From: Larinioides sclopetarius
Lineage: Eukaryota
Assembly: GCA_964023285.1 (NCBI GenBank)
Contig: CAXIEN010000093.1
Span: 2,503,739-2,567,738, forward strand
Direction of reading: 5' to 3'
DNA: 64,000 nt
The position numbers and the translations under genes are program-made. The notes below the pieces were generated by a model. It saw only the letters and a list, made by a program, of their open reading frames with translations, was not told the origin of the DNA and did not search any database. Shown piece by piece: positions 1 to 64,000 of this stretch (position 1 is its first letter; every line of letters starts with the position of its first letter).

Positions 1-1539
1 AATCAATTTCCTGGATAATTGCATTATCTACTTGCAAGAATTTTTTAACTGGAAATGGGTCATTTGCAATAGTTGTTCGCTTGCGTTCTTTTGCATAATT
101 TGTTTGCCTGGCATGTCTTAATTTTTCTTTATTTAACATATAATAATCTTTTAGTACGTTTTCCTGAGTGTAGTTTTTACCGCGAATTTCTTCAAATAAT
201 TTTTGGATTCTACAGTTGCTTGCACAATACAACTGGCTTCAACTGATTCATTTGAGGCATTTATTTCATTGCGTAGGGATTTATCTCTACCAGTACCTTC
301 TAATGTGTCACTTCGTTCACTTAACTGGAGCACTTTTTGTTTTTTCGAATCTCTATAATAGGCCTGCTTGTTGTTGTGTTTTAATCGTAATTTGGATGAC
401 ATTTTCTATTCTATTCTCTTTATATACATTTAAACATCAAATCATTTCCTATATGCATACAAATACGGACAGATACAAAATAATGAAATATTCTATACAC
501 TTAAGAATTCGGTCAATGATCAACAAATACGCGGCAATTAGCAGCGTTTTCGGTTGGGAAAATAGGGTTGTTGGGAAAAATGGTCGCCATTTTGGCGTAC
601 TATCGCCCTGAGATGCTAATTTTACAGTTTTATGCTAGTTAAAGATATAAATATTTTTTTAACTGAAACATATCAAAGGCACTAAGTTAGCTTATAGCTA
701 ATCGAAAAAAACCAACCCTCAATGAAATCTGTTCAATATTAAGCCCTATAGGTCTTCCTAAAGTGTTGAAATAATTCTTGGCGACAACCCGATTCTGACA
801 AAATCACTAACTTTACGGAAAATTAAAAATTCCGTATCTCGGTTAATTTTTAACTTTGAAAGTCCATTTTTATCCCAATTTAAAGTACTCGTTGCTAAGA
901 TTCTTCTACTTTTTGTTTTAATTTCGTTCGATTCTTGGTTCATTCAGAATTTTATAATTTACGCAGATTGCTTTAACATGGAAAGTATAGACGAAAGAGG
1001 TGCAGAGTATATGAGCAGGAGGCGGTCTGACGAATTTTTGTACTTGATGCGTTTATTCACTTGGCGTCTATTTTGTTTTTTCAGCTTGGCATTGCAGGTC
1101 GACCGTCTTGCTTGATTAAGGTTAGCAGTACAGTGCAAAAAGCCTACAGACAGCCATAAAATAAAACAGCCTTTGTGTATGGCTCCCAACCTATTTAAGG
1201 AAATATACAATCGAAAAGAAACCTACCTCTTGGATAATTATTACTTACATTTCATATAAGATTATTTTCGAGTCTGATTATTTCTTTTTAAAGATTGCCA
1301 ACATTGGTGGCACTGAAACTGCTTGAACCGCGTGGGAAAATTAGTCCGTGGCTTCGCCGTCATTTACTTTTATAATACCATTGCATATCGTTAAATATCG
1401 ATTTATCTTAGTCGATATATCACGATGATAAAGTCTGATCATTGCCCAGCCATACCCACCAGTCCTTGAAGAGTTTTTGGGTCATCCCGGGATAACTGAT
1501 GCGGCTTACGTTCCTGAATTCACAGTTGAGGCAGCAAAG

Positions 1540-2871
1540 TTATGTTCACAGTTGAGGCAGCAAAGTTATTTATAGGTGCTGACTTTTTTGCATATTTAGT
1601 CACGGTATCAAACAGATATTATTATCAGAATATGAATCAGTTTAAAATATTTCGCAAAATACAAAATGTGGAAAGATATTACAATTCCGGAGATGAAGAA
1701 ATTTTTGGGGCTCATATTTTCATGGGACAAGTTCGTAAAGATACACGAGATGATTATAAAGATACACAGACACGCTGTTTTTTTTCTGAAACTATGTCAA
1801 AGTATAGATTTCGGCAAATATGAAAGGCTTGGCATTTCAATAACAATGAAGAAATCGCAGATAAATCTGATTGATTATTCAGTCATGCCTGTACTAAATT
1901 ATTTTCTAGAAAAATTTAATATTTACAAACCAACAGGTATCGTTAGATGAGGGCATAATACCTTGGAGAGGACGATAGTTTTTTAGAGTTTACAATGCTG
2001 TGAAACTTCTAAAGTATGATATACTGATATGAATATTATCTGAAAGTGACACGGGTTATTTTTGCAGCTTTTAAGTTTATGTAGCTCAAGGATTACAGTT
2101 GATCAAAATGATTCACACACTAGTTTCATCATGTCCCGATGTCTGGCATCATTGGTACATAGATAATTACTACAACAGCTTTGATAACACGGAAGCTCTT
2201 TTACAACCCCTCCCCCCCCAAAAAAAATACGAATTTGCTGAATCATTAGGAAGAGGTCTACCAGAGTGTCTGAAGAAAACTAGTTTAAAAAGAGAGGAAA
2301 CAATCTTTCGTAGAAAAAAAGCTATATTGACCCAAGTGTGGAAATCAAAGAAAGAAGTGAGTCTCGTCTCTTCAATCCATTCGGCGGAAATGAAAGAAAG
2401 CAATTATGTTCACCGTGTAACACAACAAAAAATTATAAAGCCAAATGCTGTGATTGACTAATAACAAGAACATGAAAGGAGTAGATCGGGCTGATCAATA
2501 TTTGTCCTACTATAGAATTTTGCCTAAGACAGTAAAGTGGACAAAGCGCTTAAACATGTATATGATCAATTGTGGACTTTTCAATGCTTATGTAGTGTAT
2601 AACTTTACACAATTTCAAAAAGTAAAATACAAGAAATTCCTGCATAATATCGGATTATACTGTGTTACTGATGAACCACTTGAAACCAGCACTCAAGAAC
2701 CAGAGCCACCCACATCTGCCGTGAAAAGGATATCAAAACGCGACCCTCCTAGAAGAGTATCCAGTGACCTGTTAGTTACATAGTGAAACATGTTTCATAT
2801 GTAACTTTTGTGGTGTTCCACTTCACAGAGGCAAATGCTTTGAACGATACCATACAGTAAAGAAATATTAA
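1540..2871 (+). mobile_element. piggyBac-like (PGBD) transposase remnant, frameshifted, non-functional
   Basis: ORFs 1542-1823, 1666-1950, 2099-2461 and 2454-2783 together show piggyBac transposase motifs. N-terminal: 'ITIPEMKKFLGLIFSW' and 'FFSETMSKYRFRQI' (compare 'FFSR.MSRDRF..I'). Core: 'KGVDRADQYLSYYRILPKTVKWTKRLNMYMINCGLFNAYVVY', which matches the 'GGVD..DQ....Y...RKT.RW' region. A C-terminal Cys-rich domain, 'CNFCGVPLHRGKCFERYH', ends at the TAA at 2869-2871. The pieces lie in three different frames, so the transposase is broken. Confidence 0.75.
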
Positions 2872-3588: not shown

Positions 3589-5884
3589 GTATGTATATTT
3601 ACTTTCAATTTTCAATTAATGTTCTTTTTCAAATAAATTGTCAATATTTAAATTTAAAAAATATTTCATAAGATTTTTTTCAGGCAGTTTTATTGTGTTA
3701 CGAAGACTTTTGCTAAAGTTTAGATAACTACTTACTTACTTACTTAGATAACTACTACTTATACTTAGTAAAAGTAGGATTTGGGGATGGGAAAGTCTTG
3801 GCTTTGTTCAAGAGGTCACTAGTTTGAGATCAAATACAAACACAGAGCATTGAGCTAGTTCACTTTCAATCCATAGTATGTCAATTACCCTCAAGTTGTT
3901 TTGGGTAAAAATACAAGGAGAGGAGAGTGTTATTCTTTTGATCATGTCAATTTGGCTGACAACTGTAAACAAAATTTGGTACTTTGTGTGCATAGTACAA
4001 AGACCATTTACCAATTGCTTACCATTACTAAAAACCATTGCTTAATCTAGTTTGAATGGAATGCTTATTTTGTTTTGAAGAAAAATATTCAACTAATTTC
4101 ACTATTATAAGTTAAGTATTGCATAGTTAATTTTTGTATCGAAGCAAAAATAATATAAGTGGTAGGGTCACATGAAGCTGTGTGTGGGACTTTAGACAAT
4201 TCAAGCTTCAGGGTCTGCAAACCAAAAGCATCTCTGCTGAAGTCCATCCAGTCACTGACTTGTTCTTTTTTCCGAACTCTACACGTTTTACATTCTCTAC
4301 ACCAATTTTCAATGTCAATGCAAAATTAGTCCCCAATAAAATCACTACCGGGTTTTTCATAAAGTGTTCCTGACTTCAAAATGTCTTTAATTGATATTGT
4401 CATGAGTCAGGCGCAGAAATTTTTGAATTCCGCTCTTAGGGAGAATTAATTGCCATCGACAGGAGCTTCAATTTTTACTCTTTCACTCGCAATTTAGAGC
4501 TCTGTCCTTAAGATGTAAGGGTAATCAAAGAGTCCAATATCATATGATTACAGTATTGTCCTTAACGATTTTGTGCCAAGTTATATCCATTGAATTTAAT
4601 TTCTTCAGAATCGGTTTAATACTTGGATTTCCTAGTTGCACTTTTTGGATCTCGCTTCAAAACCAGCTTTCCTCATTTGACATTTTGAATGCTTTCATGG
4701 AAATATCTGTTTCGATTCCGAGTGTCTTCTCAGCATTGAAGCAAGATTCGTTGCTCTCAATACAGAGTCGTTAAGCTAGGGTATCTGCATTTCCTTGAGG
4801 TTTCTTCGGGGTGCTGTAAATTAACTGAAACCAAAGAAATATACTCTCCTCCTGTTCATATCTTGTTCTTCTCCAAATCTATAGTAAATTTGCGTTTTTG
4901 TAGAAATCCTTTCCGAACATGAATTGGTGATATTAATTGTATAGACTCGGTGTTGGAATTTTCTGGATATGCATTCAATTTCCCATGTATCTTTGCCTTT
5001 CCTCTTGGTTCTTATTTTGCATCTCTGCTGGTATTACAAATTTTAATGTTAAGTGGAAACAACTCAATAATCAAATTTCTTCCCTTGATTCTAAGCTTCT
5101 GGCATAATAAAGAAAAATCGATTTTTTTTCTCCTTTTAAAATGGGTTTTGCAAATAATAAACTTTTGGAAATGGTAGGGAAATGTTAGATTTTTCTGATG
5201 AGTGTTATTTATGTATTAAATATTTCAAAATTAGAGGGTTTATATTTTGTTTTTTTGCCATAAATAAGCTGAAAATGTTTCTATAATGTATGGAGAAAAG
5301 TTAAAGCATGTCGAATACATGATAGAATTTTTTTAAAAAATGTCATTCAAATGAGTATTTACTTGTATACAAATTGCAATAATTATTGTAGTAGAAAATA
5401 ACCTATAAATTGCAAAATATATGTACATCTACTTAAATATTTTGAGAGGAGAATTTATTAATGATAGTGTTCAGAAAGCGTAATCGATCTAGGGGCTCCA
5501 TTACTCAGTAGTATAAGAGAACACAAAGTTTTTCAAAAATCTCTTTTGATTATATCAAAGCAACATTTTAAGCTACTTATAATTATTCAATGTTATTCAT
5601 TTAAGCAGCATTACTTTTTAATGGTTACATAAAATTTAGTTGATTTTCATAGAAAGTAGATTTTATTGAGACTTAAATTTATCTTCTTTGTGAAGAAATT
5701 TAAATACCATACTAGATTTAAGTATTTAATATATTCCATATTATCCATGTCTTTATTTAAGGAGCATTGTAACAATCTTTATTTTTTAGAGTAATGAGCT
5801 AAAAACTAAGTATTGATACAGAAAGAAATTCTGTCATTTATGTATTTTAACTTTTTTCTCTTTTACCTTTTCGATTTTTTAAAG

Positions 5885-5987
5885 GAATTCTAAAGTTGTT
5901 ACTGGAGCACATGGAGGGTCAGTTACAGCTCTGAATTTATTTGTTAGAGATGAAAGTGTGTGGGTTATAACAGCTGGTAGTGACAAA
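5885..5987 (+). CDS. WD40-repeat protein gene exon
   Basis: Acceptor 'ttttttaaag' and donor 'gtatga'. Encodes NSKVVTGAHGGSVTALNLFVRDESVWVITAGSDK, and the reading continues in phase into the next exon (…SDK|VIKLWE…). Confidence 0.7.
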
Positions 5988-6068
5988 GTATGAATTTTAT
6001 TCATATTTAAATAGTTAATTCTTATTGTCCTTTCTAAGGTATTCATGCATATTTAATATACTTTCTAG

Positions 6069-6173
6069 GTAATCAAATTGTGGGAGATTGATTATGAAGA
6101 ACTTGTTATGAAAGAAGAATTCTTCTCGAAGCACTATGATTATGTCACTTATTGTTCTTCATATCCTGATTGT
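6069..6173 (+). CDS. WD40-repeat protein gene exon
   Basis: Acceptor 'ctttctag' and donor 'gtatgt'. Encodes VIKLWEIDYEELVMKEEFFSKHYDYVTYCSSYPDC. The 'SDKVIKLWE' run across the junction is a classic WD-repeat signature. Confidence 0.7.
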
Positions 6174-6265
6174 GTATGTTATCAATTTTTTAATCAGAAG
6201 TTCTTTAAATCATTCCTAATGTTTATTTTACTATTTCTTATTAATTATGTGTTTCAAATTTTAAG

Positions 6266-6379
6266 TTTAACAGGTACCTTACCGGATCTCATGACAATAA
6301 TGTCATCTCACAAAATGAATTTGGTGAAAAAACTGTGTATGAAGGCCTTAAGACGAGCGTAATAAATATAGCATTCACA
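6266..6379 (+). CDS. WD40-repeat protein gene exon
   Basis: Acceptor 'aattttaag' and donor 'gtaagt'. Encodes FNRYLTGSHDNNVISQNEFGEKTVYEGLKTSVINIAFT. The 92-nt intron breaks the read-through ORF, as a real intron should. The acceptor choice (6265 versus 6273) was decided by phase. Confidence 0.6.
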
Positions 6380-7059
6380 GTAAGTTTCTTCACTTTTTAT
6401 AAGTTTTGCCTCGAATTTATTTTTCATATTTCTTAAAAATCTTCATGTTCTATAAATAATTGTGAAGGTAACATATTTCTTTCATTTAATGTTAGTCACA
6501 TAGATCTGATTTGCTGTCTTATTTTCTAGATCATAAAATATTCTTTACTACTTTTTTCGTATTAAATAAAAGTAGCAGCATATAATTGATTTATCCAAAA
6601 ACTTGTATTTATAAGATTCGTATAATCTTCTACATTGCTGTCTAAAATTAATGCACAATTTTGAGGATATTACACAATTGGATTAATGTGGATATTGTGG
6701 TTTGTACTTAGTTGCTGAGAACAGTAGGACTTACTATCATTAAACTCACTTTTTATAATGAAGTTTTGCTCACAAGGTCAGCCACCAGAAAAAAGTGAAA
6801 GCAAAAATGAAGTTTGATCCATTCCTTTTTGTCTGATAGCTGGTAATGAGATGTAACTTTTCTTAATGGTTATGTTTGATGTGCATGATATTTATATGCA
6901 TTTTCCTAAACACAATAAATATTGTGGAAGATATAAAAATTTTCTTAAAAATCCCAAATTTTCTACATTAAAAAATAGCTTAAAATATGCAGTTTCATTC
7001 AAATTGCATGAAACTTACAGAACACTTAAATATATATATATATGTTTTGTTCCAGCATA

Positions 7060-7846
7060 ACTTCCGAATGACTGAACTAATTTTGATGGAACTTGGTACA
7101 TGGGTTCCTCATAACCCACTTGAAGTACAGGGTTTGTGAATAAGGTCTTATAGAATGCCTCAGGGGAGGGGTGGATCAAAATCTCCAAGATCCATGTAAC
7201 AAACTGAATGTTTCGTAAATTTTACGGTTGTGCTGAAATTTGGTGCACAGGTTCCTCATTACACGATTTGAAGTGTTGGGGGTTTGAATAAGTTTTTATG
7301 AGTGAGTGACCCTAAATTTCAGAAATACATGCAATAATTTTTTCTATTTCTAAACGTAGCAATTTTTGTGAAACTTGGTACATGGGACCCTCATTATTTC
7401 TGATTTAAAGTACTGTAGGTTTAAATAAGCCCATGCCCTAAGGACGGGTGGGCCAAAATCCCCCAAATAAATCTAAGAAAAAGGCAGGTTGGCATGTTTC
7501 GCGATTTTGATGAAATTTGGCACACAGAATCCTCATTAGCTGACATGTATGAATAAATAGGCCTTAACAAAATCCCACCAGGGCAGGATTTGTCCACCCC
7601 CCAAACTAGTTACAAGTAAAAAAATAGGCCGGTTGGCTTGCTTTGGGATTTTAAGGATATTTGGTACATAAACTCTTCATTAGCTGACTTGTATAAGAAA
7701 ATAGGGCTTAAATCCTTTAGGGCAGGGTTGATCTAACCTCCAAATATACATGTAAAAAGTAGACCAGTTGACATTCTTCGATTTTAAGGAAATTCAATAC
7801 ACAGAATATTTATTAGTCGATTTGTTTGGTTAAACAGACCTTAATA
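7060..7846. repeat. Tandem satellite array with a unit of about 140-145 bp (left part)
   Basis: Five to six consecutive diverged units of the form 'aaatttggtacacagaatcctcattagctgac…aaataggccttaacaaaatccc…gggtgg…ggttggcatgtttcgcgattttgatg'. Confidence 0.8.
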
Positions 7847-9148
7847 CAAGGGTTGGAACTTTAATAATGTCAACTATTTATTTACATCTAATACAAAAGT
7901 GATACATGTCAGCAAGTCTTACAGTCCTTCAATATAGTTGCCAGCAATGTGTACAACCCGTTTCCAATGATGTGGAAGTCGTAGGACACCTATAGCAGTG
8001 CCTGTTCTGTTGATAATTTAAATGGAGCAGTCTACTGCTGCAAAAGTCACTGGAACCATTCTGAAGCGAATGCCATGAAGTGGTTCTTTCATCTTAGAAA
8101 TTAAGGCAAAGTCACAAGGGCTTAGATATGGGGAGTTTGGTGGATATACAGCATTTCCCAGCCCCATCGATCAAGTAAATCAGCCACAGCTTGTACTGCA
8201 TGTGGCTGAGCATTGTAATGCCAAATGATAAGAGCCTTCTGTAGAAGGTGTCGCCGATTTTTTCTCAAAGCTGGTCTGAGATGGTGTTCCAAAAATGAGC
8301 AGTAATACTGCACATTGATGGTCTGCTGTGGGGGAACGGTATGCGTTTGGATGACACCATCCCAGTCATACATGAGAATCACCATAACTTTCACATTGCT
8401 GGGGTTTTGACAAAGTTTCGAACTTCCTGGTGACCCGTAATGATGCCCTTCTTCAATTGGCGTTTCAGTTCAGCCTGGTACAAATCTCGCCCAGAGTAAT
8501 GTTTCAGCATAAGAAAGCCTCTCCTTCGCTCTCATAGCCCTGCAAGTGGGTTCGAGCAGCATTGTATTGTTGCCATTTCTGTCAAATTATGCGGAACCCA
8601 TCTTGAAGCAATTTTTCTAATGCCCAGGCTTCTTCAGAATGTGGAGCACACAGTCGAATGTGCAAATCCTGCCTGTCAGGACAGCTCACGAATCGTTTGG
8701 CGACGATCACTGCCCATTAGTGCGGCAACAGCATTCACTCCCGCTCTGCTAATACTAAGATGACCTGGCCAATGCATATCTGCTACATTTTGGCTTCCTT
8801 CGTTAAAGGCCTTTACCCATCTTACCACTGTTCTGTAAGGTAATGCAGATTCCCCGCAAGCCTCTTGAAGACCTTGATGATACTGTCATGCTGTACGACC
8901 TGTGACACATTTAATCTTTACCCAACTCCATTATTCTTCTTTGGAAAACATTGTGACAACACTTACTTTAGACCACAGGCTATTACAAGGCTCAGTGCTT
9001 CGCTTCACTCTGCATGCTCATGACATAGGAGAAGGGCGAGTTTTTTTTTGCTGAGAGTTAAGGTAGTAACTAACGTGGGGTATATGTGACATTCTTTGGT
9101 TTTGAGGTGTGGTGTGCAGTGTTGCCACTATTAAAGTTCCAACCCTCA
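7847..9148 (-). mobile_element. mariner-like element of about 1.3 kb, with terminal inverted repeats and TA target-site duplication; the transposase is degenerate
   Basis: Termini are 'CAAGGGTTGGAACTTTAATA…' at 7847 and '…TATTAAAGTTCCAACCCTCA' at 9148, inverted relative to each other, with TA at 7845-7846 and 9149-9150. The minus-strand ORF 8122-8394 encodes 'LIIWHYNAQPHAVQAVADLLDRWGWEMLYIHQTPHI', which matches the mariner C-terminal 'ILHDNARPH…LGWEVL.HPPY'. The remaining frames are disrupted. Confidence 0.85.
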
Positions 9149-9400
9149 TAAAACCCCTCAAGGAAGGGTAGGCCTAACCCCTAAATTCAAGCAACAAAAA
9201 GGTCAGTTTGAATGTTTCGCGATTCTTAAGAAATTCAGTACACAGTATCCTCATTAGCCTCATTGTACAAGTAAATAGGCTTTAACAAAATCCATCAATT
9301 GAGGGTGGGTCTAACCTTTCAAATACATATGACAAATAGGCTGGTTGGCATACTTTGCGATTTTGATGAAATTCAGTATACAGAATCTTCATTTTATACA
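9149..9400. repeat. Continuation of the same roughly 145-bp satellite array, to the right of the mariner insertion
   Basis: The units 'aaattcagtacacagtatcctcattagcctcattgtacaagtaaataggctttaacaaaatcc…' resume immediately after the mariner terminus. Confidence 0.75.
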
Positions 9401-9496
9401 TGCAATATATAAACACATTTGCACAAATACCATCGATACCACAAGTAAAGTGAAGCAAAGGCATAATACGATTGATCTGAGACTCTATCCTGCTGG

Positions 9497-9880
9497 AAAG
9501 TTTTTGTTTAAACTTTGGTATGAATATTTCTTTATAGCCAATATCAAGTACTATACGGAGGATAAATAAAGTGTAAGGTGTCCTTCCGGGTAGGTTCAGG
9601 CAATGTCTTCTAAAAACAAATAAAATATGAATTGATTGAACTGAAGTCTAATTCCCAGTTTTCAGCATATAAAACTGAAAATGGAGGTGTTAAATCTCTT
9701 TTTATCAATTCCTTAGATGATAATTATCAATAGGATAAGGTGAAATGTTTATATAGAACAGCTGGGGCAATTTTGAAGAAACATATTCAATTAATTGATT
9801 TAGGCATGTTTATTGCCAAAATATTATTTTTTTAAATGATTCTAACTTCATTTAACAACAACAATAAGGAGGTAACAGCT
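9497..9880 (+). repeat. Dispersed repeat copy 1 (direct repeat, pairs with 15690-16055)
   Basis: 'ctttatagccaatat…attgattgaactgaagtctaattcc…ggataaggtgaaatgtttat…caacaacaacaataaggagg' aligns with the second copy at about 75% identity. Confidence 0.6.
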
Positions 9881-11079
9881 CTGTTGTCATCCTCTTATCA
9901 TAGTTGAAGATAGTGACATCCATCCCAATATAGTCATCGTTTTGCTTAAAAAAGACATGTAAATGTAACTGGATTATAATAATTGTGAAATTAAAAAGAA
10001 TTCTAAAATTAATAATTAGAAAGCTAAATAAAAGTAAGATTCTTGGTTTTTGCAATTTTTATTTAACTTAATTAAGTTATTGATTCGGAACGCATATTTT
10101 ACTACAAATTTCAGCTTTCTCATTTGATAAGATATTTTATAAAAGAGAGAACAATATGAATTTCACACAAATTGAAATAAATAAATTTTTTTCCAACCCT
10201 GCTTTCGAATACAATTTTACATGAAATGCTTTGAACTAAATGTCTACACTTTAGCCAAATTTTCATTTTTTTAAAATCAAATGTCTAAAACTAAGGAGAT
10301 TCAAATTATAATGTTTGCAACATTAGCACTGTCTTGAAGTTTGAAAATAGAAGATAAAATGAAAATAAATACCATTTTTTACTGCAAACGTCATTCAACT
10401 TTTTAAAATTTATTAATTTGAAATGCATAGCAATTTTAATTTCTATGTATGCTAAAAATAATTTGACAAACATAAATTCCAAATAATCGTTTCAACAATA
10501 AGTATTTTTAAATGAATACTTAAAAATAGATATAGCAAAATTTTAATTCGATTTTATTTAAAAATGTCTAAAATTTAGTTAGACTAGATCTTGTAATTTT
10601 GAGCCGTGGCAGGGGCGTATCCAAAATTTTTTGAATGGGGGTGTGGTATTAGTTATCAAGAAATTATTTATCTGAAAATTTATCACATTTTAAAAATGAG
10701 CTAATGTTTATACATTATAATAAAATTACAAAAATTACAGTTTTATTTTTCATTTTGTGATTTAATGGTTTTATTTAACATTTCGAAATTTACACAATAT
10801 ATGAACCGATTTCTTTTTGCTTCATTATAGACATTAAGAAAATTGTCCTTTAAACTATTCCATGATAAAATTATAAATATGAGCATTGTTTATAAATTTA
10901 ATTTATTCTTTTATTAGAAAATAATTAAAAAATAAATTTAATTAAGTTATTAAGATAGAAATTTTAGTTTTTAAAATGATTTTCTTTTAAAGTCTGAGTT
11001 AATCTTTTTGCAAAATTTCAATTAGTGTTTGAAATTTAGAAGCTATAAATGCAATTCATAAAAAATCTTCATAAAGGAA

Positions 11080-11235
11080 AAGCACTAGGCCTGACGGAAT
11101 TGACAATATTATTATTCAACAAATCAATAAACGATTTCCTATTCTGTTCATGGAACTTATTAACAAAGGTCTGTATCTTGGGGCATTCCCTGACCCTCGC
11201 AAGTTATTTAGTTCCAAATTGATTTGCCCCAACTG
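11080..11235 (+). mobile_element. Fragment of a non-LTR (LINE) retrotransposon reverse transcriptase
   Basis: Translation 'K(A)LGPDGIDNIIIQQINKRFPILFMELINKGLYLGAFPDPRKLFSSKL' resembles the RT N-terminal 'GPDGI…F…L…N' block. No ORF flanks it. Confidence 0.45.
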
Positions 11236-12589
11236 TATTACTAAAATAAATGTTGAAAGATGATGGTTTCATAAAGAGTTTTATTCGTTTTCTAACTGTT
11301 TAAACAATAAAATTTTTATTTCTTGAAATTGCCCAGTTTAAAGATATATGTAAAGATTTTTATTACAAATTTCAAAAACTGTTTTTTCATAATATCTGTA
11401 TCTGAGAAATGTAATACCCATGACATACTAAAATAGCTTTTCGCAGCATCTAAAGGATAAAATATATCCCAAAAGTACTGCAATTTGGAAGTCATTTTGA
11501 AATAGACAGATCAGTTTAAAGTATCCAAATAAGAAATAAAAACAAAACAAAAAAACCCCAAAAATCTATAGTGATGTTCTACATAAACTTTCCCTAATTT
11601 TCTCATTGAATTTATCTTGTTTGCCTTGGTAATTTAAATTTGAAATTGTTTTCTAGGCTTATTCTTCATACTCTTGAATAAATAAATAGTTGACAATTCG
11701 AATTCAGCATTATTTAAAAAAATTTCAAAAATTTTGTATTTTAATTAAATTTGTCATTGAATAATCTTGATAGAATTGAACTGAAGTTGCTTTGAGCAGG
11801 TAATAGAAGACAGCTTGCTTTATGCATACAGAAAAACAACATTATGAATTGTGGTGTATGGCATATGGCTGTAAGGGAAAATTATGTGTCCCTATCTTTA
11901 CATTATTAGAAATTTTAGAGCTAAAAGTATTCTAGAATACAGTTCTAAACAGATATTTAGAACTGTATTCTAGAGTACCTTTTGCTTCATAGTGTTGTAC
12001 TCAATGATTAGTATACAAAGATTTCAAACAGGAGTGTGATGCTCTCGGGCACACCTTTTCAATACTTGTCCGTAATTTGCGTGTTCTCTTGGGGAGAAAT
12101 TTATGCTTCATATAGTATTCAATTTCAGTTCTATATTTCTTGTTGGACTTTGAAATAAATAACCAGGAGTAAATGTTATGCAGAGCTTGCAATATGCTCC
12201 TTGCTTATATTAAATAAAAAACTACCAGTAGCCTGGAATATTCTTTTCCAAACGATGAAAACTGATTAACATCATGCACAACTGTATCTGTATCACGGAA
12301 TAGAGCAACATCTCTGTTTCTAAAAGAGCTTGTGGAATTTTTACTTCCCGGTACAATTAATGAAGGAATTTTCGAGAAGTTTTAGCTGTACTATCGACAA
12401 CTTCTTCAAGGAATACTAATTTAGATGACACTGCATGGAATCTCCTTTTCATTGTCTACTTCCACAGTATTGATTTTCAAAACAAATGCACTAAAACAGA
12501 TTAAAAAAATAATTCTAGATTCTGTGTATTTTTTGCATTTTTTCTCCAATAGTAGTTTCTTTTGCACTTGTTGATAATAGCTGACGGGA

Positions 12590-12866
12590 GTTTTCTCTTT
12601 TGTTAATATATGACAGAATACCAAGCAAAAAAGTTGGGAAATCACTAAAAAGTTGGATGCCGCCACTGAGGATCTCGGGGGGTGCTCGAGCACTGAGCCG
12701 AGGTCTGATGGGAAGGGCAGCACCTGAGCTGATACCCTTTCCAAGCTTCCACATTACAACAGCAAGAGGATATTTGACCACTGCCTTACATGGTGGAACT
12801 TCTCGAGTTTCGAGTCTAGAAAATCCCTGCCCTGAAAAAACCTTACCGCTAGGCCACTGCAGCCAT
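12590..12866 (-). mobile_element. tRNA-derived SINE copy
   Basis: The minus strand begins 'GGCTGCAGTGGCCTAGCGGTAAGG' (an A-box-like sequence) followed by 'GACTCGAAACTCGAG' (a B-box-like sequence). An A-rich tail lies toward about 12600. This explains the overlapping 100-140-aa ORFs on both strands at 12421-12937. Confidence 0.6.
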
Positions 12867-15689
12867 TTAGTCAGAATGGCTAAAAGAAAACTGAACACAT
12901 AATAATAGAGAAAGTAAATGGAAGCATTAATTGGCAATTAGAATTCAAACCGAGAATTACATAAAAAGAATTAATTTGAAGTTGGTGCAATAAAATATTT
13001 CACTTCACAAAACTTATCAAATAAAGCAAAAAACATTTCACTGAATAAGGCTTTATTTGAGGAACGTTGAATAAACACAAAATCTTTAAATTAAGTAAGC
13101 AAAATTCTGCTTTGACGTTTATGTATAACAGAAAAAAAAACTTTATCAACCTCAGCTTTAAAAATACACTGGTGTGCAAAAATCAAGCAACATTTCAGGT
13201 AAGCAAGAAACTTGCAATTAATATAAAAACTATGGTTTGAAATCGGATATAAAAATATCTATGACATTTATTAGACTATCAACTTGCAAAAATTCGGTCA
13301 CGAGAGCAATTGAGGGAACCACCAGACAGGATGAAAAAAAAAGGGAACTTGGACCATCCTATTGCAAAAAAAGCAGATAACAAGGTGAAACTTTCACAAA
13401 TGGCAAGGTTTTGATGTGTATAATATTTATATGTATTTTCGTACACATTCACAAATATTTGGGAAGATATAAATGTTTATTTAATCGATTCCAAAGTGAC
13501 CCGTATGTTTTTTGCTAATGACGTGCAAAGTTTTCAATCGGAATCTACACAACTTTCAGAATAATTAGCAAAGAAAGGTTGTGTTAAAATTTGAAGAAAA
13601 TTAGAGTAACATTATAGGAAATACGAGTACATGTATTAACAATTTATACAATGCATGTGTGCTAGTAGCGTAATGTTTTATTGCACAGATTTAAACTCTG
13701 ATTAAAAACTAGGGGCAGCTTATCTAAAAATTCCAATTCAGTAAGTATAAAATTCGGAAAGATATTGGCCTTTGAATCGGATGAACTTGACTTTCACGTT
13801 TAAAGAAGCTAAGTGATGAAAAATCTTGCCCAATTTTATATTTTTTAAATTTTTAATTTCGAAGAGTAACATTGAATTTTATGAAAAGTAAACATTTTGA
13901 ATAATGAAGACGAAAAAATGAAGGAAAGGGGCTGCACCAAAATCACATTTTACGGCAGAAAAAATTTGCGTATGATTTCCAAATTTGACAGGATTGTTAC
14001 AGAATGTTTATTCTACAATCTAATGAAAACCATTTTTGTTTAAAACTTATAGAAGGGTCAAAATAAATACCGAAAGAGAGGGGTAATTAATAATTGCAAA
14101 ATCACAATTAGTCTTTCGATAACTATTTAACTGCTTTGAAACTTTGTGGTGATCTGCAAAATGCCTTTATCTACCAAATAATGCATTATTTTATTTGCAT
14201 TGATACTTTATTCAAATTAAAAAAAGCGAATAAATGCATTTAAATCATTTAAGTACTCTTTTTGTTTGCCAGAGGGCACTGCACCTGATACAATTACAAG
14301 AAAATCGCGGATTTTATCGAAAGGTCGCGAAAGAAAATCGCGGAAGGTCTCGCGGATTTTAATTTGGCGGTTGGATTCTCTAGTAGATTTTTTTTCGCCA
14401 AGCTTTAATATGGAAACCCTGGTTTACCACATGGGGTTCAATAATACAATGGTAGTTATGTTTTTGTCTGTGTGCTTGATAGTAAAGTTGCGAAATACAT
14501 TGTGAAAATGGGCTCCTGTTTTAAGCTATGGGGGATTCCACACTTCAGCTCGATTTTTTGACATTTGCAATGATATTTGTTAGATAATTTACCGAAGTTC
14601 GATATCTAATTAATAACTAGTACACAGTTATTCAATTAACAACTATGGTTATTTTAGTTTTTTTTTCTGATGGGAATTTCAAATAAAACTGGTCTATTTT
14701 CACAAGGTTGCACACTCATATAATGCAATAATTCATGCCTAGGCTCTTTGCCACCCGGAACGGAATTGAAAAATGCCGCTTAAAAATAGCTCACACAAAT
14801 ATCAAAATGAAGACTAATTGAAGGAAATAGAAAGACATTTTACATTTGAAACAGCACAGAAAATTACACAAAAAAGTGTGTAATTTTTCTTGTTTTTGTA
14901 TTTGTAGAATCATTGATAGCATCTCCTTAAAATCTGTTTTACTAGTTAAGATACATTTAACAGATAATATTGCATGAGCCCTTAATCACTCAATAATATT
15001 CCAATTATTATTATTTAAAATCCTCCATATTCCATAATTTAAATAAATATTTATTTTCGTGCTTCTCTATATTCTTATTGTGAGAAAAACATATATTAAT
15101 GATTACTTTTATCTTTTAATTCCTGATTTTTGTTGTGTAGAAGATATTCTCAAGATAATTTATAAACCAGTAAATAATCCAGTAAACTGAAAGATTATTA
15201 TTGTGGTGTTTTAATTTTGTTTATCAACTTATTTTAAGCTGACTAACATGCTTATGGGTATAAAATGTGTCATGAAAATGTAGCATTGAAATCTATTGCG
15301 TATTTATGTTAATCCAACCTAGTAGCAAATAAAAACTTCAAGGACACGAAAATGATCGCGAGTGAAACGTCGATAGCAATTTGCAGTTTAACCCTTTAAC
15401 ATACAATGACGTCTCTAACACGTGCATCGAATTACAGAATTTTCCTATCTAAATGTGTATTTAAGTCATCACAGTGATTAATTTTAAATACAAAAATCAC
15501 ATGGACATGCTTTATTGTCTCAAGTGGTCTTTACCATCTGAAATAGATTGAGATAATAAAATACATTCGAAATCGGCGGTGGCTTCTAATTAAGATGTTA
15601 AATATATTTGTATTTCAAAGGATTAAAACTACTTTTTAAGGGGGTGACATAAATTCAATCATTTATGAATGATTCAGTTTAAATTTTAT

Positions 15690-22467: not shown

Positions 22468-23758
22468 GTACCATTACTACTTAATCTTTCTTTATTTTGA
22501 AGCAATGTTAATGTTAATATGATTTGATGTTTAGCTTGTATGAAAGCTGAATTTAAACACTTCTGTAAATGATTAGATTTAAACTTAATCAACAAGGCCA
22601 GATTAAATCCTGTTGGCACCCATGGCAATGCAAACTTCAAGGCCCCTCATCCTCTACCAACTTTCAAAATTGGATATGTTTTGGCTAATTTTATTTTATG
22701 TTTTATATGTGCAATTTTAAATAGTAAAATTTGAAAATATAAAACACTAATTTGGAATTCTCTCAAGAGAAATGTTTCAATATCTTGTATATTAAAAAAA
22801 AATTAAAATAGATACAAACAAAATAGTGAAAGAAATTTTGAAACATTTTCTACAGAATTAAAAACTATTTTACTACGGGATCAAAAATCTTTTCTTAGAA
22901 TTATAAAACATTATTGGAACTAACCGAATGTAAATAATGAGGAATGCTATTAAAATAATATTCCAAAATATAAATAATTCTTGCTGCCAATTTGAATAAA
23001 TTTAAATGCTCCATCTTTCTAAATTAAATAAGAGATAAATTAGGCTACTTTTTAAATTCCACAAAATAATTCCTGAGGCTTCGACGCCCATATACAACTA
23101 CCTACTTACACATGTGGCCATGTTAATTCATTATATTTTAACTGCACACTTTTATTTTAATTTCTTTTAGCTCACAGTGGTGTTTATTGGATTCTTAGAT
23201 GAAATTATATATATATATATAAAGTCTTATTATATACACTTTCAAGGGTTCTCACAATTCTTAAATGTCCTTGAAAGTTTTTTGTCAAAATTAAGTCCTT
23301 GAATTTTTATGTGACTGCTGATAATCTCTGCTTTATTTTCTCCTCAACATGCAGAAACACAAAATTAACACATTTTACAGTTTTTCAAGTGAAAAATTCA
23401 ATTAAGTACTTATGTCTACAGTATGTAGTTCTATGACCCTGTAATTTTCATTAAAAGGATCTTGAATTTTCTGTGAAAGGTCCTTGAATTTTCCATAAAA
23501 GGTCCTTGATTTTTCTTAAAAAGTCCTGGATTTTTTTTTCTTTAATAAGAGTGAAATCCTGCCATGTTCATCATTAAAAACAAAATTTGTTCAACTTTCT
23601 CTAATTGAACTTAACCTCAGTTAAATAATGTTAGTTTTTGCTTCTTATTAGAGTCATTCAGAAGTTAGTAAAGATAAGTACAGAAAAAAAATGGGAATGT
23701 TCATGTCTTTAATATATAATGATTTTAAAACTTTTGGATTAATAATTTTATCAGTGAA

Positions 23759-60900: not shown

Positions 60901-62068
60901 AAAATAAAAAAATTGTATTAACAAAATTTTAAATGTAATTCATCAGCAGTATTAATAAAAAAGTATTTTTTTCCTATTTCTGCCAGGAATTGACTGAGCA
61001 ATAATATAACTACACATTTATGATATTTAGTAACAGTATATTACAGAATTTATATCTGAAAAAGTATTCGTTTCTCTCGTCAATATTTCATTTATCTATA
61101 ATTTTAATTTATTATTTTAAATCAATCTTCTCATTTTTACATACACAAACTTTTTTCTAGCAGCAGTTTTATTGTGTGATGTGATGCAAGCAACTTAGTA
61201 TCGAACTTCAATAAAAAATGGCCAAGAAAATAATTGAACAGTGAAAAATTATTTAAAATAGATACCTTTAATTAATTTTATGTGTGAAGTTTAAAAATTT
61301 ATTAATATTTCTCAAATTCAATCAAAAGTATCCTTTATAACTTATTATTTTAAATACGTGCTTTTAAAAAACATTTTTGATAATTGCTTTAGTTCTTGAA
61401 AAATGATTAAAAAAATTAATATAATCATGAAAAGTTTATTCATAAAGAATAAATATATGCATTAATATTTTAGCGCGAGAAGGAATAAAGTGATCTAAAA
61501 GCAGAATAGGGTAAATTTTTTAGAGAATGGTGTTAAAAACATAATACCAAGATAAAAGGTAAGTAAATATTGAATGGAAATTTAAAAAAAAATATTTAAA
61601 AACCTTTTATTCATTTAAAATTTAATCTATTATATATACTGAAAGTAAAATGGGCAAATATATTATATCCTCTGCATCTTAGTTTTCTAGAAATATTGAA
61701 TATGCTTTTAAATAAAAGGCACTTGAATCTGAATTAAAAGATACAATGTGCCTCTTAATTTTCAAAGGCACAAAAATTCAAAATGTGCCTCTTATATCAG
61801 AGGCAGTTTTAAGAGTGTACATTGAGGGTGCTACTAGGCACCTTGAATTAAGGGTGCCGTCCTTTCACCTTTGTGGGGTGCCACTAAGCACCTTGAATTA
61901 AGGGTGCCGTCCTTTCACCTTTGTGGGGTGCCACTTAGCACCTTGAAGTAGGGTGCCAATCTTTCACCCTAGTTAAGGGTGCCAATTTTTCACCCTTAGG
62001 GGTGACGCTGGTGAGACAAGCTTTTCACCCCTTAAAGGTGCCAAATGTCACCTGTAGTTTTAACAGTG
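54902..62068. mobile_element. 7.2-kb element bounded by about 35-bp terminal inverted repeats with flanking TA duplications; putative non-autonomous DNA transposon with subterminal repeats
   Basis: Left end 'TA|CACTGTTAAAACTGAAGGTGACAAACCGGCACCTTT'. The right end, reverse-complemented, reads 'TA|CACTGTTAAAACTACAGGTGACATTTGGCACCTTT'. Both ends are followed by arrays of 'AGGGTGAAAG…GGCACCC' subterminal repeats, and the right side carries about 2.5 tandem 58-bp units at 61819-61990. No intact transposase ORF was found inside. Confidence 0.6.
58527..59300. repeat. Foldback: roughly 90-bp inverted repeats flanking about 600 bp of CpG-rich sequence, nested inside the 7.2-kb element
   Basis: 58527-58620 reads 'aagttcagataacggtgcgtggttaattctaacctataaataag…gacgccaagaatacgatagattggcgacgtg'. 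59215-59300 is its inverted partner ('…caccgtcgcaaagctatcactctattggcgac…cgcgcaccgttatctgaactttt'). The interior holds a TATAAATAA box at 58553, CCAAT/ATTGG boxes, and a 'aaaag|gtgagt' splice-donor-like site at 58848. Confidence 0.55.
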
Positions 62069-62989
62069 TACTAAAATATTTTTTCTACAAAATTAACAAC
62101 TTCGGAATGATGATTCAAAACTGGAATAAATTTATCCTCATATTTTTTGCTAATTAGCTTTTTTACTACTGTATATGTTTGGATAACAGTATTTACTACT
62201 ATTTTAATAGGATATAATATAAGCCCTCTATCATTTTAATCTATTAGTTTTCCATAAATCTTTTTCCCAATCTGAGCAATGTAATAAATACGAAAATGCA
62301 ATAAATCATTGTTTATACGATATTTGTTGCAAGGTCCCGCAATTCAACTTTCCACCAGGCCCCACTTTTTCTAAGACCTGCCATGGAGAACAGCTTTTAC
62401 GGATCATTCACGGACAATTCATAAGCGGTCTATGGTAAAGAAATCAGATAATTCTCGGACAACCCATAGACAGTCTATGGTAAAAACAGATAATTCTCGG
62501 ACAATCCATAGACGGTCTATGGTAAGGAGACCACTCATGATGTCAATCTAATGCTGAGGAATGGACTGTCGGCCTGTACCATGCAATATCGCTGTTTCAT
62601 TTCGAACCGCACAAAATGCTTTGACCCAACAAAAGGAAAACGCTCATTATCGCTGCAGACCTCACATAGTCTCTGAAATTATTTAGATTGACGTTTGCAA
62701 CAGGAAATTTCGATTTTAATCCACGACTGCTGATCAGTTGTGTAAATATGGCTTAGAGAGATAAAAATGGCACTCTGCGCTTTAACACTGTACAAAAACT
62801 TCCCTTCAAAATGGATCCACTGTTTTATACAATCTACGATTATAGGTTTATCGAACTAAAGCGCTTGAACAGAAAATACAAATCATTGAAAGTCGGACAA
62901 CAGTGGAGTTAATCTAACTTCCATTCACTGGTTATTCCAGTCTTGGTTTAATCAGTATAATAAACATTAAAATTTTTCGTTGAACACAC

Positions 62990-63073: not shown

Positions 63074-63285
63074 CTAACCTAAGCTATTTGAACGCACATT
63101 TCTGATATCAAAAATTTAAATAATTATTTTATGAAAAAAAAGTTTTATAAATTAGGAATTCAGTAAACTTATTTAAAACCATCTCCTCCTTGAAATAACA
63201 TTCATTAAAAAAATTTTCAAACACTTTTAGGATGAATTTGTATGGTAATATTGATAATTCATTAACATTTTTTTGGTAGTTATGT

Positions 63286-63555
63286 TATATTAACGTTCCG
63301 TTTTGTTGCAACACAAGGGCTATTTTTGGATGAAACTCGTAATATTGAACCATGGTTGGATGATGAGAATGACACCCGAGCTTGCACCCCTCTCTCCAAA
63401 TCTTCGGGCCACACCAATGGGAAGGCGTTTGGCCATTGTGTATTATTTAGCTTGCGATGAGCACCATACACGGCGGATCTTTGGCGGAATCAGGTTTCGA
63501 TCCTGAGGCCCTAGAGCCGAGACCATACTACTTAAGCCACCATGGTCAAGATCGC
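63286..63555 (-). mobile_element. Full-length tRNA-derived SINE (central-domain family), in head-to-head arrangement with the 62990 copy
   Basis: The minus strand reads 'gcgatcttgaccaTGGTGGCTTAAGTAGTATGGtctcggctctagggcctcaGGATCGAAACCtgattcc…ggggtgcaagctcgggtgtcattctcatcatccaaccatggttcaatatt…acgttaatataac'. The A-box and B-box motifs are in capitals. The ORFs on both strands at 63280-63657 are artefacts of this SINE. Confidence 0.65.
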
Positions 63556-64000
63556 TGTAGAGATTTGTGTAATAGATATGCTCTGAGTACAGTGCTTCCT
63601 CTATTCAGAGTTAATACCTTATTTGTTATTACCGCTACAAATATTCAAGCACTTTAAATTCACATGCTATTGCATATCCGTGTTAACGTTGTTAGAGGTA
63701 TTTTATGTTTTGATCTAACATGTATGCATAAGTATTTCCTTTGTATAATGAAAGGATTGATCGGAATTAAAAACAGAATTTTAAAACACACTTTCATTAA
63801 TGTCCTAAACAGGGGATTTTTTAATTTTGATGTCTTTCTATTTTTTAATTTGGAGATTTATTGTTTTTCAAATTCATTACCAGGTGATGTTACTGGTACG
63901 AATCAAAAATAGATTTAATAAAAGCTTAGTTGATAACTAAGCTCTGAAAATATTAAAATAGTATGCTTCCATCTAGAATACACAAATTTACAAAATTTCA

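What the first reader, a model, noticed from the sequence alone, without database searches (positions are those of the whole stretch)
7060..9400. Complete mariner-like element inserted into a roughly 145-bp satellite array
The satellite unit is cut between '…ccttaaTA' and 'TAaaacccc…'. The 1302-bp insert has matching inverted termini ('AGGGTTGGAACTTTAATA') and TA target duplications. The interrupted unit can be rebuilt from its neighbours, so this is a clean insertion site. The transposase carries stops and frameshifts, so the copy is dead, but its intact ends mean it could still be mobilised in trans.
Basis: seen in the sequence. Interest (0 to 1): 0.55.

Follow-up and report, generated by a model that had tools for sequence, protein, structure and literature searches.

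The report
Dead mariner transposon in tandem repeat
A full-length but broken copy of a mariner "cut-and-paste" transposon sits in one unit of a short, old tandem repeat, probably in a spider genome; this is an ordinary and well-understood kind of genomic fossil.

Summary
A 1302-bp element (7847-9148) has 28-bp inverted ends and a TA on each side. It interrupts unit 6 of a tandem array of about 7.3 units. Removing the element and one TA restores a unit colinear with its neighbours.

The minus strand carries a full-length mariner (DD34D) transposase pseudogene:
- about six premature stops
- six frameshifting indels
- two of three catalytic aspartates mutated

Relatives fix the boundaries. Of 125 independent ends of the same family in JGI metagenome contigs, 122 are flanked by TA and 117 begin with CG. 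The family terminus is CGAGGGTTGGAACTTTAATAGTGGCAAC. The window copy begins TGAGGG at one end and CAAGGG at the other, both products of CpG decay.

- The period is 137-140 bp, not 145.
- The array is only about 1 kb. Its units are 47-76% identical, default TRF misses it, and it has no other copy in the 64 kb. "Satellite" is therefore unproven.
- The ends are nearly intact, not intact. Mobilisation in trans is possible but untested.

The host is probably a spider. The closest full-length relative is a Cryptotermes secundus (termite) copy at 80% nucleotide identity, which suggests the horizontal spread typical of mariners. This is a new member of a known kind and of low interest.

The parts
7847..9148 (-). 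Complete mariner-like element, 1302 bp; the transposase reads on the minus strand
   Evidence: Bounded by 28-nt ITRs and TA/TA. Aligns end to end with a Cryptotermes secundus copy at 80.2% over 1240 nt and with two intact-ORF elements, L001 and L002.
7845..7846 (.). Left copy of the TA target-site duplication
   Evidence: Read directly. In relatives, 122 of 125 ends are flanked by TA at this position.
7847..7874 (+). Left ITR (the 3' ITR relative to the transposase): CAAGGGTTGGAACTTTAATAATGTCAAC
   Evidence: Three differences from the family consensus CGAGGGTTGGAACTTTAATAGTGGCAAC. Position 2 G>A is a CpG-decay product.
7919..8951 (-). Transposase pseudogene: ATG at 8951-8949, TAA stop at 7921-7919, about 350 codons once frames are corrected
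   Evidence: A consensus of relatives maps aa 1-350 colinearly, in frames +3/+1/+2/+1 of the reverse complement. Stops begin at 8933, 8888, 8678, 8636, 8506 and 8020. Six frameshifting indels: +2, -2, -8, -10, -1, -1. Pfam Transposase_1 scores 26.1 bits against a cut-off of 24.
9121..9148 (-). Right ITR (the 5' ITR relative to the transposase); its reverse complement is TGAGGGTTGGAACTTTAATAGTGGCAAC
   Evidence: One difference from the family consensus: position 1 C>T, a CpG-decay product.
9149..9150 (.). Right copy of the TA target-site duplication
   Evidence: The unit rebuilt with a single TA has the same length at this point as neighbouring unit 7.
7079..7846 (.). Tandem array, left part: units 1-5 (147, 135, 142, 144, 138 bp) and the first 62 nt of unit 6
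   Evidence: Units 1-3 are much more diverged (about 50-59% to the others) than units 4-8 (66-83%).
9151..9400 (.). Tandem array, right part: the rest of unit 6, unit 7 (138 bp) and a truncated unit 8 ending about 9395

Best explanation
This is a fossil copy of a DD34D mariner (Tc1/mariner superfamily) DNA transposon.

Shown by the anatomy: a 1.3-kb element carrying a single gene for a transposase of about 350 aa inserted at a TA dinucleotide in unit 6 of a pre-existing, already degenerate tandem array of about 140-bp units, and duplicated that TA.

Inferred by homology with Mos1, Himar1 and Hsmar1: an active transposase, made by this copy or by a sibling, bound the 28-bp inverted ends through its paired helix-turn-helix domains. 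It synapsed the ends, excised the element and integrated it at the TA by cut-and-paste.

Shown: the copy then decayed neutrally in a CpG-depleted, AT-rich genome, probably a spider's.
- It acquired about six premature stops. At least two are CGA>TGA changes at Arg codons, confirmed against the C. secundus copy.
- It acquired six frameshifting indels.
- It lost two of the three catalytic aspartates: ITLDE>ITLGE and HDNA>HYNA. The third (PCD) is kept.
- Both terminal CpGs decayed, to TG at one end and CA at the other.

The copy cannot make transposase. Its ends are close to consensus, so mobilisation by a sibling transposase is conceivable but undemonstrated.
For: ITRs and TA/TA.

Empty site: the rebuilt unit is colinear with its neighbours.

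Transposase homology:
- Pfam Transposase_1 above cut-off.
- Full-length matches to 350-aa proteins carrying HTH_48 plus Transposase_1/DDE_3, E 1.5e-94, 49% identity, 100% coverage.
- Mos1 structures 4U7B/3HOS, E 2e-24.
- Colinear mapping of all 350 residues.

Family-level boundaries: 122 of 125 ends flanked by TA and 117 of 125 starting with CG. L001, L002 and the C. secundus copy show the same TA + YR.GGGTTG... architecture.

Decay: stops, indels, CpG o/e 0.45 in the element and 0.58 in the window.

The array is older than the insert: units are 47-76% identical, whereas the two ITRs are 24/28 identical and 27/28 and 25/28 identical to the consensus.
Against: No result contradicts the main statement. 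The limits are these.
- No other copy from the same genome was available, so copy number, age and the existence of an active source are unknown.
- The family consensus used for the termini comes from another host. Those contigs have 40% GC against 29% in the window.
- HTH_48 is below the Pfam cut-off in this copy.
- The mariner subfamily is unassigned.
Confidence: 0.95

Rival explanations
1. The target is a true satellite DNA: a short dispersed array of a monomer family that is abundant elsewhere in the genome, so the element marks a transposon landing in heterochromatin-like sequence.
For: Head-to-tail units with a period of 137-140 bp. Mariners inside satellite DNA are documented, for example Mboumar in Messor bouvieri (PMC2581405).
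Against: Only about 7.3 units and about 1 kb. Units are 47-76% identical, where real satellites are usually homogenised. Default TRF does not call it. There is no second copy of the unit in 64 kb. No Rfam or Pfam signal and no flanking terminal repeats. Genomic abundance could not be tested.
Confidence: 0.3
2. The copy is still mobilisable in trans, a non-autonomous but transposition-competent element.
For: Both 28-nt ITRs are present and 27/28 and 25/28 identical to the family consensus. Both TA flanks are present. Full length is retained. Active Mos1 tolerates 4 differences between its own ITRs, including position 1 (PMC2642840 oligonucleotide sequences).
Against: The terminal dinucleotide next to the cleavage site is mutated at both ends, and the left ITR has two further changes in the transposase-binding part. 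[quoted passage not shown] No intact transposase source from the same genome was found, and the nearest intact ORFs are only 49% identical.
Confidence: 0.15
3. The inverted ends, TA flanks and ORF remnants are a chance or assembly artefact, or the transposase remnant has been domesticated as a host gene.
For: None found.
Against: The 18-mer is exact at both ends against a chance expectation of 0.18. 125 independent relatives have the same end and the same TA. About six stops, six frameshifts and two lost catalytic residues exclude a functional protein.
Confidence: 0.01

Closest known systems
Mariner family in termites: the Cryptotermes secundus copy (GCA_002891405.2, NEVH01018378.1, about 349138-350414; L003 2752-4028) and 120 or more JGI metagenome contigs (Ga0209628, Ga0209629, Ga0209737, JGI20166J26741)
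   Same: Same ITR (CGAGGGTTGGAACTTTAATAGTGGCAAC), TA duplication, size of about 1.3 kb and gene order. 80.2% nucleotide identity over 1240 nt to the C. secundus copy. About 85% identity to the metagenome consensus over the terminal 190 nt or so.
   Different: Different host: the window has 29% GC and carries a spider-type repeat, whereas the contigs have 40% GC. The metagenome copies are young, about 95.5% identical to their own consensus, while the window copy is a diverged, decayed sister lineage. That the metagenomes come from termite guts is my recollection. Here it is supported only by their near-identity to the C. secundus copy.
[quoted passage not shown]
   Same: A mariner of about 1.29 kb found inserted at TA sites inside tandemly repeated DNA. 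TIRs, TA duplication and a DDD transposase.
   Different: Mboumar-9 has an intact ORF, is active in vitro and is 64% identical in nucleotides to Mos1. The target here is a short degenerate array, not a demonstrated satellite.
Mos1 (Drosophila mauritiana; PDB 3HOS, 4U7B), Himar1 and Hsmar1/SETMAR
   Same: Full-length colinear homology. 28-bp ITRs of the type NNAGG(G)T.G.... TA target. D,D34D spacing.
   Different: Intact relative P0002 is 31% identical in protein to Himar1 and matches Mos1 and SETMAR at E 7e-44 and 1e-30, so this is a separate DD34D lineage. The catalytic residues D1 and D2 are lost in this copy.

Membership tests
mariner (DD34D, Tc1/mariner superfamily) | Transposase homologous over its full length to mariner transposases (Pfam Transposase_1 plus a Mos1-type HTH) | tested here: met
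   Transposase_1 scores 25.3 and 26.1 bits against a cut-off of 24. E 1.5e-94 at 100% coverage to 350-aa proteins. Mos1 PDB E 2e-24 over residues 11-344. HTH_48 scores only 16.6 bits in this copy but 27.7 and 25.8 bits in intact relatives.
mariner (DD34D, Tc1/mariner superfamily) | DDD catalytic triad with 34 residues between the second and third Asp | tested here: met
   Met at lineage level. In this copy D1 is G and D2 is Y, D3 is kept, and the spacing is restored once a 1-nt deletion is corrected. This is as expected for a dead copy.
mariner (DD34D, Tc1/mariner superfamily) | Short terminal inverted repeats (about 28-30 bp) | tested here: met
   28-nt arms at 7847-7874 and 9121-9148, 24/28 complementary. 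The same sequence is found at 125 ends of relatives.
mariner (DD34D, Tc1/mariner superfamily) | TA target site duplicated on insertion | tested here: met
   TA at 7845-7846 and 9149-9150. A unit rebuilt with one TA is colinear with its neighbours. 122 of 125 relative ends are flanked by TA.
mariner (DD34D, Tc1/mariner superfamily) | Element of about 1.3 kb with a single ORF of about 345-350 codons | tested here: met
   1302 bp. The ORF remnant at 8951-7919 maps to aa 1-350. Relatives are 1277-1332 bp.
mariner (DD34D, Tc1/mariner superfamily) | Ability to transpose, autonomously or in trans | not testable with these tools
   Autonomy is excluded by stops and frameshifts. Mobilisation in trans needs a hop assay or polymorphism data.
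named mariner subfamilies represented by Mos1 (mauritiana), Hsmar1 (cecropia) and Himar1 (irritans) | Close protein similarity to the type element. From my own knowledge, within-subfamily identity is typically well above 40%. | tested here: not met
It matches Mos1 at E 7e-44 and SETMAR at E 1e-30. Other subfamilies (mellifera, capitata, elegans, vertumnana and others) were not tested.
satellite DNA | Head-to-tail tandem monomers | tested here: met
   Eight core copies spaced 132-147 bp. TRF with relaxed parameters gives period 137, 4.7 copies, 66% matches.
satellite DNA | Long arrays and/or high genomic abundance of the monomer | tested here: inconclusive
   The array is about 1 kb and unique within the 64 kb. 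Genome-wide abundance cannot be tested without the host genome.

The most novel reading that the evidence does not exclude
This mariner lineage was exchanged horizontally between chelicerates (a spider host) and termites or their relatives. The window carries a repeat known only from Araneus ventricosus proteins, yet its mariner is 80% identical in nucleotides, UTRs included, to a decayed Cryptotermes secundus copy. It also shares the exact 26-nt ITR core with at least 120 insertions in what are probably termite-gut metagenomes. At typical arthropod neutral rates (my rough assumption), two neutrally decaying copies at that identity share an ancestor tens of millions of years ago. The two host lineages are far older than that.
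Probability: 0.55. Interest if true: 0.3.

Novelty: new member of a known kind. Interest (0 to 1): 0.12.

Why it matters
The finding matters little on its own. Dead mariners are among the commonest fossils in arthropod genomes, and mariners inside tandem repeats are documented (Mboumar in ants).

Its practical uses are these:
- It is a cleanly bounded, textbook insertion with a rebuildable empty site, useful for annotating and dating this repeat-rich locus.
- It adds a data point for the patchy, probably horizontal, distribution of one mariner lineage across spiders and termites.
- It shows how CpG decay erodes the terminal CpG of both ITRs. That is a plausible way for copies of this family to lose cleavage-competent ends in methylating genomes.

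Tried and rejected
- Default TRF on the window did not report the array. It appears only after the insert is removed and the penalties are relaxed.
- I looked for a larger host element around the array. There are no significant inverted or direct repeats between the flanks 4500-7078 and 9396-12000.
- I considered that the array units might be pseudo-coding: a 'DFDEIWYTESS...' motif recurs and several unit lengths are multiples of 3. I rejected this because every frame has stops in every unit, the phase shifts between units 1-3 and 4-8, and Pfam finds nothing even at E<=1.
- Rfam (E-value mode on 6000-10500, gathering mode on the whole window) and ARAGORN found nothing relevant.
- Host identification failed twice with the word-indexed protein search: ORF 12515-12937 and the 69-aa repeat ORF gave no hits. 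The exhaustive HMMER search then succeeded.
- A literature search for the JGI metagenome identifiers found nothing, so their habitat is unverified.
- A search for papers on spider satellite DNA gave nothing useful.
- No MITE derivatives or further copies of the element occur in the window.
- Megablast found no sequence shared between the window and the metagenome loci outside the element.

Full report
**1. The observation**

The region was read directly. The 18-mer AGGGTTGGAACTTTAATA occurs at 7849-7866 (+) and 9129-9146 (-) and nowhere else in the window. The chance expectation is 0.18 sites even with up to 3 mismatches. The repeat finder extends the arms to 26 nt at 92% complementarity (7849-7874 and 9121-9146).

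The left flank ends ...ccttaaTA and the right flank starts TAaaacccc....

**2. The tandem array**

A conserved 34-nt core recurs at 7079, 7226, 7361, 7503, 7647, about 7785, 9221 and 9359. That gives units of 132-147 bp (mean 139) and about 7.3 units once the insert is removed.

The repeat is real. Self-BLAST of the rebuilt array gives off-diagonal hits down to E 1e-29, and units 1-2 match units 3-4 at E 1e-9. It is also old. Pairwise identity is 66-83% among units 4-8 and only 47-59% for pairs involving units 1-3, against 35-49% for a flanking control.

Default TRF does not report the array. On the rebuilt sequence with relaxed penalties it reports period 137, 4.7 copies and 66% matches.

Neither the unit nor the element occurs elsewhere in the 64 kb. 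No terminal repeats of a larger host element flank the array. There is no Rfam, tRNA or Pfam signal. 'Satellite' is therefore an untested label. What is shown is a short, degenerate tandem array.

**3. The empty site**

Removing 7847-9150 (the element plus one TA) gives a unit 6 that aligns across the junction with no junction gap:
- unit 6: AGACCTTAATAAAAC-CCCTCAAGG
- unit 4: AGGCCTTAACAAAATCCCACCAGGG
- unit 7: AGGCTTTAACAAAAT-CCATCAATTG

. With one TA, the length at this point equals that of unit 7. The second TA is therefore a duplication made on insertion.

**4. The gene**

The reverse complement translates, across frames, into a full-length mariner transposase.
- One frame alone hits Pfam Transposase_1 above its cut-off (25.3 bits against 24).
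- A stitched translation hits 350-aa proteins carrying HTH_48, Transposase_1 and DDE_3 at E 1.5e-94, with 49% identity and 100% coverage. It also hits many fragments annotated in Cryptotermes secundus, Stegodyphus mimosarum, Ladona fulva and Periplaneta americana.
- It matches the Mos1 crystal-structure sequences (4U7B, 3HOS) at E 2e-24 over residues 11-344.

tblastn with the consensus of relatives maps residues 1-350 colinearly from the ATG at 8951 to the TAA at 7921-7919, in four frame segments.

A nucleotide alignment with two intact-ORF elements (L001 and L002) and the C. secundus copy shows six frameshifting indels in the CDS: +2, -2, -8, -10, -1 and -1.

In-frame stops begin at 8933, 8888, 8678, 8636, 8506 and 8020. 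Four of them are TGA, and at least two are demonstrably CGA>TGA against the C. secundus sequence. This fits a CpG-depleted genome: CpG o/e is 0.58 in the window and 0.45 in the element.

Catalytic residues:
- Relatives carry IT(I/L)DETW, HDNA and PCD, with 34 residues between the second and third Asp.
- The window copy reads ITLGE (D1>G) and HYNA (D2>Y), and keeps PCD.

The copy cannot encode an active enzyme.

**5. Boundaries confirmed by relatives**

The two Logan/ENA contigs with intact ORFs show TA + CATGGG(T/C)TG...GCAAC ends. The C. secundus copy shows TA + CGATGGTTGGAACTTTAACAGTGGCAAC at one end and CGAGGGTTGGAACTTTAATAGTGGTAAC + TA at the other.

Among the 125 ends with enough flank:
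- 122 have TA at positions -4/-3
- 117 have CG at positions -2/-1
- 114 share the identical 26-mer

. The family ITR is therefore the 28-mer CGAGGGTTGGAACTTTAATAGTGGCAAC, cut next to TA.

It also explains why the two outermost bases of the window copy do not pair. TGAGGG (right end, reverse complement) and CAAGGG (left end) are the two deamination products of the ancestral terminal CpG.

Against the consensus, the right ITR has 1 change and the left has 3 (positions 2, 21 and 24). The ends are near-consensus, not intact. The two natural ITRs of active Mos1 also differ at 4 of 28 positions, including position 1, as seen in the oligonucleotide sequences in PMC2642840. The same paper states that ITR quality is crucial for efficiency. 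Mobilisation in trans is thus possible but unproven, and no active source from this genome is known.

**6. Context**

The window has 29% GC and the element 44%. A repeat at 63266-63654 has a minus-strand ORF whose only relatives in a 1.8-billion-protein library are 35 proteins. The 20 I looked up are all Araneus ventricosus 'hypothetical proteins', at 45-66% identity. The host is therefore probably a spider, but not A. ventricosus itself.

The metagenome contigs that hold the family have 40% GC and share nothing else with the window. Their element ends are about 95.5% identical to their own consensus. By eye in the alignment, the C. secundus copy is much closer to that consensus than the window copy is over the terminal 135 nt or so. 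The window copy is about 85% identical to it. I recall these JGI projects as termite-gut metagenomes but could not verify this.

The window copy is 80.2% identical to the C. secundus copy over 1240 nt, UTRs included. Such similarity between neutrally decaying copies in a chelicerate and an insect points to horizontal spread, which is the norm for mariners.

**7. Mechanism**

Shown:
- insertion at a TA of one array unit, with duplication of that TA
- homology of the gene and the ends to mariner
- subsequent neutral decay, dominated by CpG transitions and small indels

Inferred from the characterised family members Mos1, Himar1 and Hsmar1:
- ITR binding by the paired HTH domains
- synapsis and DDD-catalysed excision
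- integration by cut-and-paste

PMC2581405 lists the three family hallmarks: a DDD transposase, short TIRs and TA duplication.

**8. Comparison and novelty**

All structural membership criteria for DD34D mariner are met. The lineage is about equally far from Mos1, Hsmar1 and Himar1, so it belongs to none of those three subfamilies. Other subfamilies were not tested.

The nearest situational precedent is Mboumar, found inside ant satellite DNA (PMC2581405). That element is active and related to Mos1, and its target is a true satellite.

This is a new member of a known kind.

**9. Verdict**

The finding is ordinary. Interest is 0.12.

Noticed in passing
window 1530-2780 (+): Decayed piggyBac-type transposase spread over three frames. 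Pfam DDE_Tnp_1_7 hits cover profile positions 8-85, 191-302 and 306-349, and two of the three are above the curated cut-off.
   Followed up: partly
window 63266-63654: Interspersed repeat whose minus-strand ORF (63283-63489) matches 35 proteins in a 1.8-billion-protein library. All 20 that I looked up are Araneus ventricosus hypothetical proteins (45-66% identity, E down to 4.5e-10). This suggests the window comes from a spider genome.
   Followed up: yes
window 12515-12937 (-): The longest ORF in the window (140 aa). It contains a peptide (VVMWKLGKGISSGAALPIRPRLS) that resembles, from my memory only, the same class of spider repeat. The word-indexed protein search found no homologue and Pfam found nothing.
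   Followed up: partly
L004-L123 (JGI metagenome contigs): Of 124 ends of this mariner family that could be classified, 120 are the 3' end (relative to the transposase) and only one (L088) is the 5' end. Almost all lie within about 250 nt of a contig end. Either the 5' ITR usually differs, as in the C. secundus copy (CGATGG...AACAG), or 5'-truncated or deleted derivatives dominate in that host.
   Followed up: partly
window 7847-9148 against its surroundings: The element has 44% GC in a window of 29% GC. This is compatible with coding origin, with arrival from a GC-richer source, or with both.
   Followed up: no
window 61826-61968, 62402-62526 and 23438-23535: Short, well-conserved tandem repeats reported by TRF: 50 bp x 2.9 at 91% matches, 42 bp x 2.9 at 84%, and 44 bp x 2.3 at 78%. 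Their nature is unknown.
   Followed up: no
window 7079-7846 and 9151-9400: Units 1-3 of the array are far more diverged than units 4-8: 47-59% against 66-83%. The array is either a composite of two age classes or decays as a gradient from one side.
   Followed up: partly
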